From an uncultured Bacteroidales bacterium (GTDB lineage Bacteria > Bacteroidota > Bacteroidia > Bacteroidales > PUMT01), in contig CAYQXY010000003.1 of NCBI GenBank assembly GCA_964421595.1, forward strand, positions 53,053 to 117,052: DNA of 64,000 nt, written 5' to 3'. Positions 2,940 through 24,012 of the stretch are shown one piece after another (within the stretch, counting starts at the first letter, position 1; each line of letters opens with the position of its first letter). A program made the translations under genes and the position numbers. The notes beneath the pieces were generated by a model, which had not been told where the DNA came from, ran no database searches, and saw only the letters and a program-made list of their open reading frames with translations.

Positions 2940-3530
2940 ATGAAGCGGTTATTAAAAACATTGGAGCCACCACCGGGATGGAAACCGGCAGTTATAATAC
3001 TGCTGGGGACCCTTACAGGAATATTCTTTCTTGTTTTTCAGACATCTGAAGCCCATTCGTATATTTCCGATAACCCCGAGACCTGCATAAACTGCCATGT
3101 AATGTACCCGCAGTATGCTTCATGGGCAAGGAGCAGTCACCGCGAAACAGCTACCTGTGCTGAGTGCCATGTGCCCCAGGATAATTTTTTCAGTAAATAT
3201 TACGTAAAGGGAACCGATGGTATGAGGCATGCCTATGTTTTTACTTCGAGAACTGAACCACAGGTCATACAGATTAAGCAGCGCGGCATTAATGTGGTGC
3301 AGGAAAACTGCATACGCTGCCATCTGGACCTTGTTGATATGGTTAGCATTGTTGAGGTTACCGGGAATAATCATATGGAAGGTGAGGGTCATCGTTGCTG
3401 GGACTGCCATCAGACGGTCCCTCACGGGGATGTCAGGAGTTTGTCTTCGGCTCCCTTCTCGCTTGTGCCCAGGCTTCCATCGGTAATGCCGCGATGGCTT
3501 CAGGATTTTATGAATCGCAACAATGATTAA
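2940..3530 (+). CDS. nrfH: cytochrome c nitrite reductase small subunit NrfH (tetrahaem NapC/NirT family, membrane anchored)
   Basis: An N-terminal TM helix is followed by four CxxCH motifs (CINCH, CAECH, CIRCH, CWDCH). The gene lies directly upstream of nrfA. Confidence 0.9.
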   Translation: MKRLLKTLEPPPGWKPAVIILLGTLTGIFFLVFQTSEAHSYISDNPETCINCHVMYPQYASWARSSHRETATCAECHVPQDNFFSKYYVKGTDGMRHAYVFTSRTEPQVIQIKQRGINVVQENCIRCHLDLVDMVSIVEVTGNNHMEGEGHRCWDCHQTVPHGDVRSLSSAPFSLVPRLPSVMPRWLQDFMNRNND

Positions 3531-3612
3531 GGCATAATTTTCATTATTGAAAATTATGCCTGTTGAAACAGATGTAATCAAAATTAAAATATAATACATA
3601 AAGACCAAGCAT

Positions 3613-5091
3613 ATGGCAACCATTAAAGAACTTTCTGAAAAAAAGCCCTGGGTAAACTGGGTTCTTTTCTTTGGCACAGTAATCATTGTTTTTTTACTCG
3701 GCCTTTTTGCCGCCTCAATTGTTGAAAGGAGAAGCGAGGCTCAGGCTTATTTTCAGATGACCCATCCCCTGCCGGAATTTGAACCGAGAAATGAAATGTG
3801 GGGCCAGAACTTCCCAAGGCAGTATGAGTCATACAAGCAGACACTTGACACAACATTCGAAAGCAAGTACTATGGTTCAGTCATGATAGACTACCTTGAA
3901 AAGTATCCGGAAATGGTCATTATGTGGGCAGGGTATGCCTTTGCGAGGGATTACAGTCAGGGCAGGGGGCACTACTACTCTGCATATGATATACAAAGAA
4001 CCCTGCGTACAGTTCAGCCCCAGCCGGCTACCTGCTGGACCTGCAAGAGTACGGACGTGCCCAGAATGATGAATGAGGTTGGTGTTGCTGAGTTTTACAG
4101 TGGTACCTGGATTGACATGGGAAGCGAAATTATAAATCCGATCGGGTGCCAGGATTGCCATGACCCTGAGACCATGAACCTCAGGATTACAAGGCCTGCC
4201 CTGTCAGAGGCATTTGAAAGGCAGGGAAGAGACATAGAGCATTCTACCCACCAGGAAATGCGTTCACTTGTATGTGCCCAGTGCCATGTAGAATATTATT
4301 TTGGTGAGAATAATTATCTTACATTCCCGTGGGATGATGGCTTCAGTGCAGTTGCCATTGAAGAGTATTTTGATAGATATGAGCATACCGATTGGGTACA
4401 TAGTTTGAGCAGGGCACCTATGCTTAAGGCTCAGCATCCTGACTATGAGCATTACAAAACAGGTGTACACGCTGATCGTGGCGTTTCATGTGCCGATTGT
4501 CATATGCCTTACAAGAGGGAAGGCGGCCTGAAATTCACCAATCACCACCTGGTGAGTCCGCTGAATAATATAGAAGGATCCTGCCAGGTTTGCCATCGTG
4601 AGAGTGAAGAGACACTTCGCCAGAATGTCTACGACCGACAGTCAAAAGTAAGTGAATTGCGGCGTATTGCAGAAAAACATCTGGCAAGGCTGCACATCGA
4701 GGCAAAGGCTGCCTGGGATGCAGGTGCAACAGAAGAAGATATGGATGAGATACTTACCCTGATAAGGCATTCTCAGTGGAGATGGGACTGGGTGGCTGCG
4801 GCAAACAGCATGGGCTTTCATTCTCCCAACGAATCATTGAGAACCCTCGCCACATCCATAGATAAGGCGCAGGAAGCGCGAGTACTTCTTACAAGGGTGT
4901 TCAACAAATATGATGTTCCGCAGCCAATAGACCTTCCCGACTACTCGACCAAAGCATTGGCCCAGCAGTTACTCGGACTGGATATGGCGAACCTGGAACA
5001 GCAAAAAGACGTGTTCCTTAATACTGTATTGCCGGAATGGCTTGAGGACGCACGACAAAGGGAAGAGCTGTACCACCACCCTGAGGAATGA
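3613..5091 (+). CDS. nrfA: ammonia-forming cytochrome c nitrite reductase NrfA (pentahaem)
   Basis: The active-site haem motif CWTCK (CxxCK) is present, plus CQDCH, CAQCH, CADCH and CQVCH. There is an N-terminal hydrophobic anchor or signal. The 492-aa length is typical. Confidence 0.95.
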   Translation: MATIKELSEKKPWVNWVLFFGTVIIVFLLGLFAASIVERRSEAQAYFQMTHPLPEFEPRNEMWGQNFPRQYESYKQTLDTTFESKYYGSVMIDYLEKYPEMVIMWAGYAFARDYSQGRGHYYSAYDIQRTLRTVQPQPATCWTCKSTDVPRMMNEVGVAEFYSGTWIDMGSEIINPIGCQDCHDPETMNLRITRPALSEAFERQGRDIEHSTHQEMRSLVCAQCHVEYYFGENNYLTFPWDDGFSAVAIEEYFDRYEHTDWVHSLSRAPMLKAQHPDYEHYKTGVHADRGVSCADCHMPYKREGGLKFTNHHLVSPLNNIEGSCQVCHRESEETLRQNVYDRQSKVSELRRIAEKHLARLHIEAKAAWDAGATEEDMDEILTLIRHSQWRWDWVAAANSMGFHSPNESLRTLATSIDKAQEARVLLTRVFNKYDVPQPIDLPDYSTKALAQQLLGLDMANLEQQKDVFLNTVLPEWLEDARQREELYHHPEE

Positions 5092-5611: not shown

Positions 5612-7729
5612 ATGCATATAAGTCAAAAAACTCAATTAAAGGCGGTCATGTCCTTGACAGTTGTTATTATAACAGCTACCGGACTGCTTGGGTATGGATT
5701 AAATCTCGCGCTTCAAACCCAAAGCATTCCGGTTATCCTGATTGTATCGCTTATCTGCATCATCCTGGCATTATTGGTTTCACTGCTTTTTTATTATTTG
5801 TATTCCCGCCCTCTTATAAAATTCTGGTTCAGGGCTGAACAACAGGCAAAGGTACAAACCAGGAAACAGTTTGCCGATTTCATGGATGACCTCCCCCTGG
5901 GTGTTTTTATTAAAGACGATAAAAGCAGGGCTATCTATCTGAATCAATATATGGACAATGTGTTCGGAAAGTCAAATTGCATAAGTAAATCGCCTTATAA
6001 TATCTTTGACCGGACTACGGCTGACAGGGTAATAAGTGAAGACAAAAGGGTCCTGGCGGGCGAAAATGTAATGGTAGAGGAATCGCTGACCGACAAAAAC
6101 GGCCGGAACAGGGTTTATATGACCCATAAGTTTCTTATGCAGGAGGTGGAGGCCGATCCGCTGATAGGTGGTATATCGATCGAAATAACACGAAGGAGGG
6201 AGGCAGAATACAAGCTCCGGATATTGTCAAAGGCAATCAGGAATTCACCTGTATGTGTAATAATTACCGACCCCGAAGGCATGATAGAGTATGTCAATCC
6301 GGCATTTGTAAATTCAACAGGATTTAGCTTTGCCGAGGTGATGGGGGAAAATACAAAGATTATCAACTCCGGCAAGCATGAGAAAGAGTTTTTCCGCAAT
6401 ATGTGGTCGGTTATAAAAGAGGGACATGACTGGCAGGGTGAGATTCTGAACAGAAAAAAAGACGGATCGCTTTTCTGGGAACTGGTCAATATCTCGTCAG
6501 TCAAGAACAATAACGGAGAAATAACTCATTTTGTTGCTATTAAAGACAACATCAGCAAGCGGAAACATATGGAAGAAGAGCTGCTGAGAGCCAAAGAGAA
6601 AGCTGAGGAGAGCGACAGACTCAAATCTGCTTTTCTGGCAAACATGTCACATGAGATCCGGACACCAATGAATGCAATTGTAGGCCTTTCCAGTCTCCTG
6701 TCAGATCCGCAGCTCCCTTTTTCGGAAAGGGAAGGCTTCTCGTCAATAATCCTTGAAAATTCAAATGTACTGTTGCAACTAATCGATGATATAGTAGATG
6801 TATCAAAGATAGAAGCAGGACAGATTAAGATACGTCCGTCTGTTTGTGAGATAACTGCATTATTGTGTGATATATACGAATCATTCGCTCTGCAGATAAG
6901 AAATAAGGGGAATTCTGTTAAGCTGGTTCTCAATGAAGCGATGTATGGTAAAAAGCTATACACATTGACCGACGCCTACAGGCTGAGACAGATTCTAACC
7001 AATTTAATAAGCAACGCTTTGAAATTTACCGAACATGGCACGGTAGAGTTTGGTTACAGCATGAAAAATGGGAGCGATATCCGGTTTTTTGTAAAAGATA
7101 CCGGTATTGGAATCCCGGCTGATAAGCATGATATGATATTTGACCGTTTCAGGCAGGCTGATGATACCAGGACAAGATATCACCAGGGTGCAGGACTGGG
7201 ACTGTCTATTTCAAAAAGCCTTGTTGAGCTCCTGGGGGGCCAAATATGGGTTGAATCAGAAAGAGACAGGGGGGCCTGTTTCTATTTCACCATCCCATTG
7301 CGCAAGTCGGCCGAAAACACAGCAACTGCAGCTCATAATACTGAGTTGTCAGCAGTTCCGGATCTTACCGGTAAAACTATTCTGGTGGTAGAAGATGTTG
7401 AGGTAAACTTTACCCTGCTTGAAGCACTCCTTAAAAAGACCGGCGCTGACCTGCCATGGGCTATCAACGGCACCAGGGCACTGGAGTTTTGCAAAGACAA
7501 CAATAACATATCTTTAGTATTACTTGACCTGAATCTTCCGGATATTCACGGACTGGATGTTTTGCGGGAAATCAAGAAAAAATACAAGAACCTGCCGGTA
7601 ATAATTCATACGGCATACGCCATGAATGGCGAGAAGGAACTCTGCATAAATGCCGGATGTGATGGGTTCATAACCAAGCCGATAGATCTGGAAAATCTTA
7701 TCAGGCTTATAAAGGAATGCAATATTTAA
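5612..7729 (+). CDS. hybrid sensor histidine kinase / response regulator (2 TM, PAS domains, HisKA, HATPase_c, REC)
   Basis: The H-box is SHEIRTPMNAI. N/G boxes are present (NLISNALKFT, DTGIGI, GAGLGLSI). The PAS region includes PEGMIEYVNPAF. The C-terminal receiver has LVLLDLNLPD and a KP motif. Confidence 0.9.
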   Translation: MHISQKTQLKAVMSLTVVIITATGLLGYGLNLALQTQSIPVILIVSLICIILALLVSLLFYYLYSRPLIKFWFRAEQQAKVQTRKQFADFMDDLPLGVFIKDDKSRAIYLNQYMDNVFGKSNCISKSPYNIFDRTTADRVISEDKRVLAGENVMVEESLTDKNGRNRVYMTHKFLMQEVEADPLIGGISIEITRRREAEYKLRILSKAIRNSPVCVIITDPEGMIEYVNPAFVNSTGFSFAEVMGENTKIINSGKHEKEFFRNMWSVIKEGHDWQGEILNRKKDGSLFWELVNISSVKNNNGEITHFVAIKDNISKRKHMEEELLRAKEKAEESDRLKSAFLANMSHEIRTPMNAIVGLSSLLSDPQLPFSEREGFSSIILENSNVLLQLIDDIVDVSKIEAGQIKIRPSVCEITALLCDIYESFALQIRNKGNSVKLVLNEAMYGKKLYTLTDAYRLRQILTNLISNALKFTEHGTVEFGYSMKNGSDIRFFVKDTGIGIPADKHDMIFDRFRQADDTRTRYHQGAGLGLSISKSLVELLGGQIWVESERDRGACFYFTIPLRKSAENTATAAHNTELSAVPDLTGKTILVVEDVEVNFTLLEALLKKTGADLPWAINGTRALEFCKDNNNISLVLLDLNLPDIHGLDVLREIKKKYKNLPVIIHTAYAMNGEKELCINAGCDGFITKPIDLENLIRLIKECNI

Positions 7730-7805
7730 ATAACAAGTATAAAATTTTTGTAATACAGATTTTTATATCTTTAGCTTAATTAATTTAACAAATAAGATCA
7801 AGGCG

Positions 7806-9713
7806 ATGTCAAACTCCATGCTGAAATTCAAGTTCGGATTAAAATCGAAACTGGGACTGATCCCGGGTACTTCCCGGCTGGAAGCCCGGAAAAATGAGCT
7901 CGAAAAGGAATACGAAGAATTCCTCAATTATGAGAAATCGAATGAACCAAAACGGTTTATGGAACTGGAAGAGATAGTTACTTCCCAGGATTTTGAAGAT
8001 CGGAGGAAGCACATTAATAACCAGAAATTTAAAGGATCTCCGGCATGGCAGAAGTTCAAAGATTATACTGCTCTCAAAAACTCCCGGGAATTCAAAGGAT
8101 ATTTTGCAATTGTAAATTCCAAAGAATTTGATGATTACAGGAAATGTGAAAATTCCTCGGAATTGAAGGAATTTGAGAACCTGGGTGCATATTTGAAATC
8201 ACCTGAATTCAAAGCTATAAAAAAATCTAAATTCAAAGAGAGTGAAGCATGGCATAAATACATGGAATACAAAAGGCTCAGCAAAAAACCTGAGATTAAG
8301 GACTACTTCAGGATCAAACATTCTAAAAATTACAAGGCACTCAAAGAAGTTGAGGGTAGTAAAACTTTAGCCCATTTTGAGGAACTTCATCAACTTGTAA
8401 ATTCTTCTGAGTTCCTTGTGATGAAAAGATCAATGTCTGCATCGGAATTCAAACAGACAACCGAATATGCCAAATACAAGGAGTATAAAAGCCTTGAATC
8501 TGATCCTGATATCAGGGGTTATAATGAACTTTTAAGGGACAAGGCTTATTCAAGTTTTAAGGTACTTGAGAATTCGCCTGAGATAAGGGAATTTGAAAAC
8601 CTTGAAAATTATGTTAACTCTTCGGAATATAAAAATGCCAGAAAGGATTTCGAACTGAAAAAAGCAGCAGAACTGCATAAGCAGAATGATTACAATAACC
8701 TGAGAAAATCGGTTAAGTTCAAATCATACTATAAAATCAAAGACTCCAGGGATCTCCTTCATTATAAGAAAATCAAGGATTCGCCCGAGCTTGAAAACTT
8801 TTATGAACTTGAGAAATATATCTTATCAACAGAGTTCAAGGAAACAAAGTCCTATCTTGAATCACGGGACAAGTATAAAAAATCACCTGATTATGTTCAA
8901 TTAATTGCATATGAAGAATTAAAAAAATCAAGAAAGCTTAAATGGTATTATAAGCTTAAAAAATCCGGTAAATTTGAGGAAGTTAAAAAGTGGAAGCTTG
9001 TATTTTCCGATGATTTTACCGGCAGCGAGCTTGACAAAACCAAATGGCTCACATCATTTTACTGGGGAAAAGAATTGTTGAAGGATAGCTACTCGCTTGG
9101 GTCTGACCCCCACTTTTACAGTGATGGGAATAACCTTGAAGTTGATAACAGCCTCTTAAAACTCCATACCAGAAAAGAACAGGTTACCGGACAGGCATGG
9201 GATCCTGCAATCGGGTTTTTTCCGAAGGAATTCGCCTATACATCAGGACTTGTTAATACCGGTGACAGTTTCCGTCAGAAATATGGCGCATTTGAAGCCA
9301 AAATCAGAATGCATCCATCGAAAGCGGTAAACCATGCATTCTGGATGTTGTCAGATACGGCTGTTCCGCATATAGATATTTTCCGTTATTCCGGGCTAAA
9401 CAAGAGACAAATTGAGCTTAATAATTACTGGGAACAGGGTCAGGTGCCCGGAGAGATAAGAAGGAATGCTGATAATGTTGGCGGAATTGATTTCTCTAAG
9501 GGCTTTTTTATTTTCCGGCTTGAATGGTATCCTGACAAGCTTGTATGGAAAATTAATGAAACAGTTGTGAAAATTGAAGAGGAGGGCATTCCGGATGTAC
9601 CAATGTACCTGCTCCTTAGTTCAGGAGTAGAAGATAATGCCGATGGCAACGGATTGCCGTCAACTATTGATATTGACTGGGTTAAATGCTACAGGCTGGA
9701 AAAGCCTGAGTAA
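7806..9713 (+). CDS. repeat-rich protein with C-terminal GH16-like (concanavalin-like glucanase fold) domain; catalytic motif degenerate
   Basis: The 635-aa ORF has five ~70-aa K/E/F/Y-rich repeats over roughly aa 40-390. The C-terminal part aligns to the GH16 pattern (FSDDF, YTSGLVNT, YGAFEAKIRM, HAFWML, IDIDWVKCYRL). The ExDxxE site reads HIDIFR. Confidence 0.75.
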   Translation: MSNSMLKFKFGLKSKLGLIPGTSRLEARKNELEKEYEEFLNYEKSNEPKRFMELEEIVTSQDFEDRRKHINNQKFKGSPAWQKFKDYTALKNSREFKGYFAIVNSKEFDDYRKCENSSELKEFENLGAYLKSPEFKAIKKSKFKESEAWHKYMEYKRLSKKPEIKDYFRIKHSKNYKALKEVEGSKTLAHFEELHQLVNSSEFLVMKRSMSASEFKQTTEYAKYKEYKSLESDPDIRGYNELLRDKAYSSFKVLENSPEIREFENLENYVNSSEYKNARKDFELKKAAELHKQNDYNNLRKSVKFKSYYKIKDSRDLLHYKKIKDSPELENFYELEKYILSTEFKETKSYLESRDKYKKSPDYVQLIAYEELKKSRKLKWYYKLKKSGKFEEVKKWKLVFSDDFTGSELDKTKWLTSFYWGKELLKDSYSLGSDPHFYSDGNNLEVDNSLLKLHTRKEQVTGQAWDPAIGFFPKEFAYTSGLVNTGDSFRQKYGAFEAKIRMHPSKAVNHAFWMLSDTAVPHIDIFRYSGLNKRQIELNNYWEQGQVPGEIRRNADNVGGIDFSKGFFIFRLEWYPDKLVWKINETVVKIEEEGIPDVPMYLLLSSGVEDNADGNGLPSTIDIDWVKCYRLEKPE

Positions 9714-23940: not shown

Positions 23941-24012
23941 TAGCCTCACCAGGAATCGAACCTGGATCTACGGTTTAGGAAACCGCTATTCTATCCATTG
24001 AACTATGAGGCC
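23941..24012 (-). tRNA. tRNA-Arg (anticodon CCT)
   Basis: The reverse complement is GGCCTCATAGTTCAATGGATAGAATAGCGGTTTCCTAAACCGTAGATCCAGGTTCGATTCCTGGTGAGGCTA. It folds as a cloverleaf with a 7-bp acceptor stem, TTCGATT T-loop and anticodon loop TTCCTAA. No CCA is encoded. Confidence 0.9.

What the first reader, a model, noticed from the sequence alone, without database searches (positions are those of the whole stretch)
7806..9713. Signal-less protein with five ~70-aa K/E/F/Y-rich repeats fused to a GH16-like domain lacking both catalytic glutamates
From about aa 40 to 390 the protein consists of five degenerate super-repeats. Each contains a block such as ENSxELKEFENLxxYLxSxEFK, then a (E/K)YKxL block and an IKDYFxIKxSK-type block. 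The C-terminal 240 aa aligns well to the GH16 jelly-roll. Where GH16 enzymes have E-I-D-I-M-E, this protein has H-I-D-I-F-R, so both the nucleophile and the acid/base are missing. I can see no signal peptide, lipobox or T9SS C-terminal domain. This points to a non-catalytic, possibly cytoplasmic, glycan-binding or scaffolding role of unknown type.
Basis: partly seen in the sequence, partly recalled or inferred. Interest (0 to 1): 0.55.

Follow-up and report, generated by a model that had tools for sequence, protein, structure and literature searches.

The report
Signal-less dead GH16 with helical repeats
This gene encodes one member of a widespread, uncharacterised Bacteroidales protein family that databases label "beta-glucanase": a rod of five novel helical repeats joined to a glucanase-like domain that has lost its catalytic residues and has no export signal, so it is probably not a secreted sugar-cutting enzyme.

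Summary
ORF 7806-9713 (+, 635 aa) has five tandem ~70-aa helical repeats (aa 44-396) followed by a GH16 jelly-roll (aa 396-632). The catalytic strand reads H522-I-D524-I-F-R527 where laminarinases have E-I-D-I-M-E.

It is not a one-off decay. Relatives occur in at least 534 species genomes, and the 80 best loci kept are all labelled Bacteroidales/Bacteroidota MAGs except one labelled Chlorobiota. In 121 aligned relatives the acid/base Glu is never present (K/R, or deleted). The nucleophile position is H (77%), E (14%) or Q (9%).

None of 226 full-length relatives has a signal peptide, lipobox or transmembrane segment. The protein ends just after the GH16 domain, so there is no room for a T9SS domain.

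The repeat module occurs only in this family, in 2-7 copies. It matches no Pfam family and no PDB or BFVD structure.

Most canonical laminarin-contacting residues are also replaced, so glycan binding is not shown. Gene neighbourhood is not conserved across clades.

Best reading: an intracellular, non-hydrolytic binding or scaffold protein derived from GH16, with an unknown ligand. Source databases name it a GH16 beta-glucanase or hydrolase. I rate it a new variant of a known kind (catalytically dead GH16-like proteins), of moderate interest.

The parts
7806..9713 (+). Whole ORF, 635 aa plus stop. Most homologues begin at the residue that aligns with Met5 (ATG at 7818), so the true start may be 7818.
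   Evidence: 146 of 223 homologues have M at the column of query position 5.
7839..7883 (+). Conserved N-terminal motif LKSKLGLIPGTSRLE (aa 12-26). Family pattern: h-[KR]-x-h-[LF]-G-[LM]-[IFY]-P-x-T-x-x-[IYLV]-E. It is not a signal peptide. AF2 is confident about it only when the C-terminal domain is present.
   Evidence: G17 89%, P20 87%, T22 86% and E26 95% of 223 sequences. pLDDT for aa 1-20 is 93/92 in the full-length model against 51/54 in the model of aa 1-395. Translation.
7935..8147 (+). Helical repeat unit 1 (aa 44-114)
   Evidence: Unit HMM domain E = 4.5e-24. All short helices in AF2.
8151..8351 (+). Helical repeat unit 2 (aa 116-182)
   Evidence: Unit HMM domain E = 3.1e-18.
8355..8567 (+). 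Helical repeat unit 3 (aa 184-254)
   Evidence: Unit HMM domain E = 6e-21.
8571..8774 (+). Helical repeat unit 4 (aa 256-323)
   Evidence: Unit HMM domain E = 1.6e-15.
8778..8993 (+). Helical repeat unit 5 (aa 325-396)
   Evidence: Unit HMM domain E = 1.6e-20.
8991..9701 (+). GH16-derived beta-jelly-roll domain (aa 396-632)
   Evidence: Pfam PF00722. PDB sequence and profile hits to laminarinases. Foldseek E of about 1e-17 to 4dfs, 3azx and 2vy0.
9369..9386 (+). Degenerate catalytic motif H522-I-D524-I-F-R527 in place of E-x-D-x-x-E

Best explanation
The gene encodes a soluble, most probably cytoplasmic, two-module protein.

**Module 1 (aa 1-396).** A basic region (pI 9.35, net +20) of short helices. 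It has a conserved about 43-aa N-terminal cap followed by five tandem ~70-aa repeat units. Each unit has about five or six helices of 7-13 residues. The best-conserved positions are Ser residues, several of them just before predicted helices, and buried aromatic or aliphatic residues. I read this as a structural arm or spacer whose length varies across the family with copy number (2-7 units).

**Module 2 (aa 396-632).** A GH16-derived beta-jelly-roll 'head'. The nucleophile Glu is His and the acid/base Glu is Arg, so the canonical retaining hydrolysis or transglycosylation mechanism of GH16 cannot operate.

**What the head still does.** The former catalytic strand, P-[H/E/Q]-[IV]-D-[IV]-x-[K/R], remains one of the better-conserved segments in a family that has diverged to about 30% identity. 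A family-specific insert G-x-x-W-x-P-x-x-G-F is invariant. The old cleft region is therefore still under selection. The most likely use is to bind, not cut, a ligand. Replacing two carboxylates with His and Lys/Arg would favour an anionic or strongly polar partner.

**N-terminal motif.** The conserved G-L-I-P-x-T-x-x-h-E motif is predicted to pack on the head domain.

**Shown versus inferred.** Shown: the architecture, the loss of both Glu, the family-wide conservation, the absence of export signals, and the exclusivity and novelty of the repeat. Inferred: cytoplasmic location, a binding rather than catalytic role, a spacer role for the repeats, and docking of the N-terminus on the head.
For: - **Catalytic residues.** HIDIFR lies under EIDIME in three laminarinase alignments and in the profile alignment. 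In 121 relatives the acid/base position is never Glu, the nucleophile is H93/E17/Q11, Asp is 112/121 and P521 is invariant.
- **Fold.** AF2 pLDDT is 92 and Foldseek gives E of about 1e-17 to GH16 laminarinases.
- **Selection.** 53 positions of the C-domain are at least 85% conserved, including the family-specific G462, W465, G470 and F471. The gene is therefore not decaying.
- **No export signal.** The upstream stop is at 7740. There is no hydrophobic segment (maximum KD19 of 0.6). 226 relatives have no transmembrane segment; the highest whole-protein KD19 is 1.7, in one protein whose start looks mis-called. Only 3 have any Cys in the first 30 aa. No domain follows the GH16 module.
- **Repeats.** Copy number is 2-7.
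- **Exclusivity of the repeat module.** A phmmer search of aa 1-393 against 1.84 billion representatives gave 228 hits. Of the 144 not seen before, every one lacking the GH16-like domain is 409 aa or shorter, which looks like a fragment.
- **Novelty of the repeat module.** No Pfam family recurs. There is no PDB sequence hit. Foldseek best E is 0.45 against PDB and 0.036 against BFVD.
- **N-terminus and head.** pLDDT of aa 1-20 drops from 93/92 to 51/54 when aa 396-635 are removed.
- **Distribution.** At least 534 species genomes.
Against: - No experiment supports any part of this, and no ligand is identified.
- Most canonical laminarin-binding residues are replaced, so 'binding' rests only on conservation of the cleft strand.
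- 14% of relatives keep the nucleophile Glu, and H/D/K could in principle support another chemistry.
- Absence of a recognisable signal does not prove cytoplasmic location. SignalP was not run and non-classical export exists.
- The N-terminus-to-head contact rests on a pLDDT difference only. Covariation between the N-terminus and the C-domain is no higher than between the repeats and the C-domain.
- Gene neighbourhood gives no functional clue.
Confidence: 0.6

Rival explanations
1. It is still an enzyme with a re-tooled active site. His/Glu/Gln, Asp and Lys/Arg on the old catalytic strand would catalyse a different reaction on a cytoplasmic sugar-containing substrate. Examples are beta-elimination on an acidic glycan (as in jelly-roll polysaccharide lyases), phosphorolysis, or hydrolysis that uses an exogenous or substrate-borne base.
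For: - The strand P-[H/E/Q]-[IV]-D-[IV]-x-[K/R] is strongly conserved, with P521 invariant, D 93% and the basic residue invariably K or R wherever that position aligns.
- 17 of 121 relatives keep the nucleophile Glu.
- The closest catalytic relative found, on viral contigs L082/L084, has the same 'LPEIDI' context with an intact EIDIIE. The family therefore descends directly from active enzymes.
- From my own knowledge, not tested here: several polysaccharide lyase families share the beta-jelly-roll fold and use His, Tyr, Arg and Gln.
Against: - H/E/Q interchange at one position, and D/N at another, is typical of hydrogen-bonding residues rather than a fixed catalytic residue.
- Most subsite residues of GH16 laminarinases are lost.
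- No lyase or phosphorylase family was detected by Pfam, NCBIfam or PDB searches.
- No sugar-metabolism genes are consistently adjacent.
Confidence: 0.15
2. It is exported by a route that needs no classical signal, such as vesicles, lysis or an unknown system that recognises the conserved N-terminal motif. It then acts outside the cell as a lectin or adhesin on a stalk, as surface glycan-binding proteins do.
For: - As far as I know, characterised bacterial GH16 proteins act outside the cytoplasm (general knowledge).
- A variable-length spacer with a binding head is the usual design of surface proteins.
- The N-terminal motif is unusually conserved for a cytoplasmic protein.
- The invariant D624 aligns with the Asp that binds calcium in GH16 enzymes (PMC5595797).
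Against: - There is no h-region in the query (LKFKFGLKSKLGLIPG). No relative has a lipobox Cys or a T9SS domain.
- The motif is predicted to pack on the protein's own head domain rather than to be cleaved.
- No secretion-system genes are in the conserved neighbourhoods.
- The family is not in a polysaccharide-utilisation locus in any of the 81 loci examined.
Confidence: 0.15
3. It is a conventional secreted laminarinase whose start codon or active site was misread, or a decaying pseudogene.
For: Source databases name relatives 'beta-glucanase (GH16 family)' or 'family 16 glycosylhydrolase'.
Against: - A stop lies 66 nt upstream, with no start codon between it and the ATG.
- Homologues start at the same conserved motif.
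- Both Glu are absent in every alignment.
- The reading frame is intact, with 53 highly conserved positions across at least 534 species.
Confidence: 0.02

Closest known systems
GH16 endo-beta-1,3-glucanases (laminarinases), e.g. Thermotoga TmLam 3azx/4dfs, Pyrococcus PfLamA 2vy0, Flavobacterium ULam111 5wut
   Same: They share the beta-jelly-roll fold (Foldseek E of about 1e-17, target TM of about 0.7). Identity over about 240 aa is 24-26%. Shared structural motifs are FxxEF/W at the start, YTS, YGxxEAK, AFWM, the central Asp, EW...W and DW/DY-V-R-x-Y.
   Different: - Both catalytic Glu are replaced (H522, R527).
- The substrate Arg becomes Leu, two of the three stacking Trp are lost, and the GNGE loop is replaced.
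- A family-specific invariant insert GxxWxPxxGF is added.
- There is no signal peptide.
- It is fused to an about 395-aa helical repeat region absent from all of these enzymes.
Glucanase-like domains of invertebrate beta-1,3-glucan recognition proteins (betaGRP/GNBP)
   Same: These are GH16-derived domains that have lost catalytic residues and act as non-enzymatic recognition or assembly modules, joined to a separate N-terminal region (PMC2375007 for the architecture; loss of catalytic residues is from general knowledge of the family).
   Different: They are animal, secreted immune proteins. Their N-terminal region is an about 100-aa beta-glucan-binding domain, not a helical repeat. No specific sequence relationship was found here.
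Mycobacterium tuberculosis Rv0315, an inactive GH16 beta-1,3-glucanase
   Same: It is a bacterial GH16-fold protein with no detectable glucanase activity (PMC4606783).
   Different: Rv0315 keeps both catalytic Glu (E171, E176) and has a signal peptide. Its inactivity is attributed to an over-wide groove. It has no repeat module.
Catalytically intact GH16 on IMG/VR contigs (L082/L084, ORF 7935-8822)
   Same: This is the closest catalytic relative seen, at 28-29% identity over aa 378-632. It has the same 'LP-x-IDI' context without the Trp-containing loop of laminarinases.
   Different: It keeps E-I-D-I-I-E and WPAFW. It is only 295 aa, with a hydrophobic N-terminal segment and no helical repeats.

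Membership tests
Glycoside hydrolase family 16 (as a fold/sequence family, Pfam PF00722) | Significant match to the GH16 profile, and a beta-jelly-roll fold | tested here: met
   PF00722 scores 49.4 bits against a cut-off of 22, E = 4.6e-13. Foldseek gives E of about 1e-17 to GH16 structures.
Glycoside hydrolase family 16 (as active retaining glycosidases/transglycosylases) | Catalytic motif E-x-D-x-(x)-E, with a Glu nucleophile and a Glu general acid/base | tested here: not met
   The motif is H522-I-D524-I-F-R527. Across the family the first position is H/E/Q and the last is K/R, never Glu.
Glycoside hydrolase family 16 (as active retaining glycosidases/transglycosylases) | Hydrolytic or transglycosylating activity on a glycan | not testable with these tools
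   This needs an enzyme assay.
GH16 laminarinases (beta-1,3-glucan binding site) | Conserved sugar-contact residues: three stacking Trp, an Arg, and the Asn/Glu of the GNGE loop (listed for ULam111 in PMC5595797) | tested here: not met
   R71/R85 becomes L/I/M. W98/W112 becomes variable. W113/W127 becomes V/L/T/I. Only W102/W116 is kept, at 97%. The GNGE loop becomes [DE]-x-[HQ].
Secreted / surface Bacteroidota CAZymes | N-terminal Sec or lipoprotein signal peptide, and for T9SS cargo a C-terminal sorting domain | tested here: not met
   The query and 226 relatives have no hydrophobic h-region or transmembrane segment. The query has no Cys in its first 30 aa and only 3 of the 226 relatives have one, so there is no lipobox pattern. 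The chain ends 3 aa after the GH16 domain and has no further Pfam or NCBIfam domain. SignalP was not available.
Known helical repeat families (TPR, Sel1, HEAT, ARM, spectrin and others) | Match of the repeat unit to a Pfam repeat profile or to a solved repeat structure | tested here: not met
   No Pfam family recurs among 70 units. The PDB profile search gives a best E of 0.19. Foldseek gives a best E of 0.45 against PDB and 0.036 against BFVD, with TM of about 0.2.
Anti-phage defence / phage proteins | Match to PADLOC or PHROGs models, or presence on viral contigs | tested here: not met
   PADLOC gives 0 hits. PHROGs gives only E of 0.05 or worse. Viral contigs hold only plain GH16 domains, without the repeats.

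The most novel reading that the evidence does not exclude
The family is a previously unrecognised class of intracellular pseudo-glycosidase. In it, a remodelled, now cationic GH16 cleft binds a cytoplasmic anionic polymer or lipid-linked glycan precursor. A new type of helical solenoid acts as a length-tunable arm. The invariant N-terminal peptide (with E26) docks into or beside the old active site as a plug or as a trans-supplied carboxylate. This would make it a regulated sensor or scaffold of envelope-glycan assembly specific to Bacteroidales.
Probability: 0.12. Interest if true: 0.75.

Novelty: new variant of a known kind. Interest (0 to 1): 0.5.

Why it matters
**Annotation.** At least 534 species-level genomes, mostly environmental Bacteroidales, carry a gene that source databases call 'beta-glucanase (GH16 family)' or 'family 16 glycosylhydrolase'. 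Such labels can be counted as laminarin-degrading capacity in metagenomic CAZyme surveys. The data here say it cannot be a canonical GH16 hydrolase and is not exported. Those counts would therefore be inflated, and the family should be flagged.

**Biology.**
- It appears to be a bacterial, intracellular example of a glycosidase fold recruited to a non-catalytic role.
- It brings a ~70-aa helical repeat with no Pfam entry and no structural relative.
- It has a conserved N-terminal motif of unknown purpose.

Finding its ligand could reveal an unknown cytoplasmic process in this order.

Tried and rejected
- **Upstream start or hidden signal peptide.** Rejected. A stop lies at 7740 and homologues begin at the same motif.
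- **N-terminal amphipathic membrane-targeting helix.** Rejected. The helical hydrophobic moment is 0.11 for the query and averages 0.24 across the family, below the shuffled controls at 0.32.
- **Operon or context clue.** The 81 loci fall into several clade-specific synteny types with no shared neighbour. A hybrid histidine kinase lies upstream in the query's clade. The kinase next to the gene in Salinivirgaceae is only 22-25% identical, so it is not an orthologue. I dropped this as a functional link.
- **Covariation between the N-terminal motif and the GH16-like domain.** Top MI-APC pairs are no stronger than for repeat-versus-domain pairs. The result is inconclusive and probably reflects phylogeny and an indel.
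- **Repeat module in other architectures.** None were found. Every hit has the GH16-like domain or looks like a short fragment.
- **Remote homology of the repeat.** Searches of Pfam, PDB sequences, PDB structures and BFVD found nothing significant.
- **Defence or phage origin.** No support.
- **Rfam.** No match in or next to the gene; the only hit in the whole window is a distant tRNA. The promoter and terminator scan found no more than chance, and it does not model Bacteroidota promoters.
- **Literature.** No paper was found on this family or on three of its GenBank accessions.
- **Not run.** I did not search the big protein database with the unit profile, because the listing limit would have been filled by family members.
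Full report
**Observation**

Reading back in frame from the ATG, there is a TAA at 7740-7742 and no start codon in between. A longer protein with a hidden signal peptide is therefore impossible. Most homologues begin at the residue that aligns with Met5, so the real start may be the ATG at 7818. This changes nothing else.

**The repeats are real**

- A gapless self-comparison of aa 1-395 shows raised diagonals at offsets 12, 24, 48, 72, about 140, about 209 and about 282. The best mean diagonal score is 0.33, against a maximum of 0.15 in 100 shuffles.
- Cutting the region at the helix boundaries gives five units that align over their whole length.
- All ten unit pairs score above 300 composition-preserving shuffles, with z between 5.6 and 13.9.
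- A unit HMM iterated on the family places the units at aa 44-114, 116-182, 184-254, 256-323 and 325-396, with domain E-values between 1e-15 and 1e-24.
- The region has K 17.7%, E 13.2%, S 9.9%, Y 7.3% and F 6.1%, a pI of 9.35 and a net charge of +20.
- AlphaFold2 with a 121-sequence alignment models it with high confidence (mean pLDDT 92) as a string of 26 short helices, five or six per unit.
- The best-conserved repeat positions are Ser residues (S45, S60, S117, S302, S314, S326), several of them just before predicted helices, and hydrophobic or aromatic residues such as L54, F63 and F344. I read these as helix caps and core positions. This pattern fits a structural element rather than a specific binding surface.

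**The C-terminal domain is GH16 with a dead catalytic motif**

- Pfam PF00722 matches aa 440-626 at E = 4.6e-13, above the curated cut-off.
- The best solved relatives are the laminarinases 2vy0, 4dfs and 3azx, aligned over aa 391-629.
- The model's best Foldseek hits are the same enzymes, at E of about 1e-17 and target TM of about 0.7.
- In all three pairwise alignments, and in the family-profile alignment, H522-I-D524-I-F-R527 lies under E-I-D-I-M-E. The segment is a predicted beta-strand, aa 522-529.
- I could not make a residue-level 3D superposition because the tools do not return coordinates.

**It is a family, not an accident**

- The protein database search returned 156 relatives. Many are full length and 35-91% identical. 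The only functional names their sources give are 'beta-glucanase (GH16 family)', 'family 16 glycosylhydrolase' and similar; others are called hypothetical or carry no name.
The 80 best loci kept are all labelled as MAGs, all but one (labelled Chlorobiota) of Bacteroidales/Bacteroidota, including Marinilabiliales, Salinivirgaceae, Marinifilaceae and Rikenellaceae. The closest come from 'CSSed', 'T3Sed' and 'B1Sed' sediment MAGs.
- In 121 aligned sequences the catalytic strand reads P(100%)-[H 77% / E 14% / Q 9%]-[I/V]-[D 93% / N]-[I/V]-x-[K/R]. No member has Glu at the acid/base position.
- Fifty-three positions of the domain are at least 85% conserved. They include a family-specific insert, G462-x-x-W465-x-P-x-x-G470-F471, that laminarinases lack.
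- The domain is therefore under purifying selection, including around the old active site. It is a functional protein that no longer uses the GH16 mechanism.
- The nearest catalytically intact relative I found is a 295-aa GH16 on two IMG/VR contigs, with 'LPEIDIIEH'.

**Is it still a glucan binder?**

I mapped the residues reported to contact laminarin in ULam111 (PMC5595797) through the alignments.

| Laminarinase residue | State in this family |
|---|---|
| Hydrogen-bonding Arg | L/I/M in every member |
| Stacking Trp 1 | variable residues |
| Stacking Trp 2 | W513 retained, 97% |
| Stacking Trp 3 | V/L/T/I |
| GNGE loop | [D/E]-x-[H/Q] |

The canonical beta-1,3-glucan site is largely gone. 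What can be said is that the cleft strand and new invariant aromatics are conserved. Two carboxylates have become His and Lys/Arg, which would suit an anionic or polar ligand.

**Location**

- The query has no hydrophobic stretch (maximum Kyte-Doolittle 19-residue window 0.6) and no Cys in its first 30 aa, so no lipobox.
- Among 226 full-length relatives the highest N-terminal 12-residue hydrophobicity is 2.3 and the median is 1.1. Only three have any Cys in the first 30 residues.
- The chain stops three residues after the jelly-roll, so there is no room for a T9SS C-terminal domain, and none was detected.
- Instead of a signal peptide, the family has a sequence-conserved N-terminal motif, h-[KR]-x-h-[LF]-G-[LM]-[IFY]-P-x-T-x-x-h-E, with G17 89%, P20 87%, T22 86% and E26 95%. 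Real signal peptides are not conserved like this.
- The segment is not an amphipathic helix.
- AF2 is confident about aa 1-20 only when the GH16-like domain is present: pLDDT is 93/92 in the full model against 51/54 in a model of aa 1-395. This suggests the N-terminus packs on the head. It is an inference. Covariation could not confirm it.

**The repeat module**

- A phmmer search of aa 1-393 against 1.84 billion cluster representatives gave only 228 hits.
- Of the 144 new proteins among the 150 best hits listed, 105 carry the GH16-like domain. The other 39 are 409 aa or shorter and look like fragments.
- Copy number ranges from 2 to 7. Three units (68 proteins) and five units (94 proteins) are the most common.
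- Seventy diverse units scanned individually hit no recurring Pfam family.
- The unit profile finds nothing in PDB sequences, best E = 0.19.
- The high-confidence N-terminal model has no significant structural neighbour. The best PDB hit is E = 0.45 and the best BFVD hit is E = 0.036, with TM of about 0.2. The weak hits are long coiled-coil arms, which says only that the model is elongated.
- The module is new to the databases I could reach and exclusive to this family.

**Context**

In the window the gene follows nrfH (2940-3530), nrfA (3613-5091) and a PAS-containing hybrid histidine kinase (5612-7729). It converges on an AbgT-family transporter gene. This order is kept in the closest sediment MAGs. 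Other clades have entirely different neighbours:

- a putative metallopeptidase lipoprotein upstream, with an ECF sigma, FecR and CarboxypepD_reg set downstream;
- ATP synthase genes, an alpha/beta-hydrolase-like gene and a heptosyltransferase-like gene (both judged from their sequences only);
- others.

The kinase next to the gene in Salinivirgaceae is not an orthologue of the one here. There is no polysaccharide-utilisation locus, secretion system or phage context. PADLOC and PHROGs give nothing.

**Interpretation**

The best-supported reading (confidence about 0.6) is an intracellular, non-hydrolytic, GH16-derived binding or scaffold protein. It has a conserved N-terminal cap, a length-variable helical arm and a remodelled head.

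Rivals:
- A re-tooled enzyme (about 0.15). The conserved H/D/K strand and the 14% of members that keep the nucleophile Glu favour it. The H/E/Q interchange and the lost subsites count against it.
- Non-classical export as a surface lectin (about 0.15).
- A mis-annotated ordinary laminarinase or a pseudogene is effectively excluded.

**Comparison with known systems**

It works like the catalytically dead GH16-like domains of invertebrate beta-glucan recognition proteins (architecture in PMC2375007). It is also loosely like the inactive mycobacterial GH16 Rv0315 (PMC4606783), which keeps its Glu residues and its signal peptide. It belongs to GH16 as a fold and sequence family. It fails the defining catalytic-motif test for an active GH16, and it fails the laminarin-site test. 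The bacterial, signal-less setting and the new repeat module make it a new variant of a known kind rather than something categorically new.

**Score**

Interest is 0.5. The protein is well defined, widespread, apparently mis-named and structurally novel in half its length. However, it has no demonstrated function and no link to a standing open question.

Noticed in passing
window 2940-5091 (+): There is an nrfH-like tetrahaem gene (2940-3530, four CxxCH motifs) and nrfA (3613-5091, Pfam Cytochrom_C552, E = 6.7e-166). Together they make a cytochrome c nitrite reductase operon directly upstream. The order nrfH, nrfA, hybrid kinase, this gene is conserved in the closest sediment MAGs (L001-L014, L054).
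   Followed up: partly
window 5612-7729 (+): A hybrid sensor histidine kinase (two PAS domains, HisKA, HATPase_c, receiver) ends 77 nt before the gene. Kinases of this broad type lie within about four genes of the family member in 33 of 81 loci. Outside the query's own clade they are at most about 41% identical to it, and the ones directly upstream in Salinivirgaceae only 22-25%, so I did not treat this as a functional link.
   Followed up: partly
L082 and L084, ORF 7935-8822 (L084 copy truncated at 8510): IMG/VR contigs carry a 295-aa GH16 with an intact EIDIIE motif and a hydrophobic N-terminus. It sits next to a 565-aa ORF whose product I did not identify. It is the nearest catalytic relative of the family (28-29% identity) and might mark its origin.
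   Followed up: partly
L005 282-2203: In one sediment MAG the family gene is split into two adjacent ORFs of 482 and 158 aa that overlap by 4 nt. This is likely a frameshift or an assembly error.
   Followed up: no
window 23941-24012 (-): This tRNA gene is the only Rfam match at gathering threshold in the whole 64-kb window.
   Followed up: no
window 9369-9398 and family alignment A1: A four-residue indel lies just after the old catalytic strand. RYSG-type residues (aa 527-530) are present in 42 of 121 relatives and absent in 79. The indel splits the family into two structural subtypes and dominates the covariation signal.
   Followed up: partly
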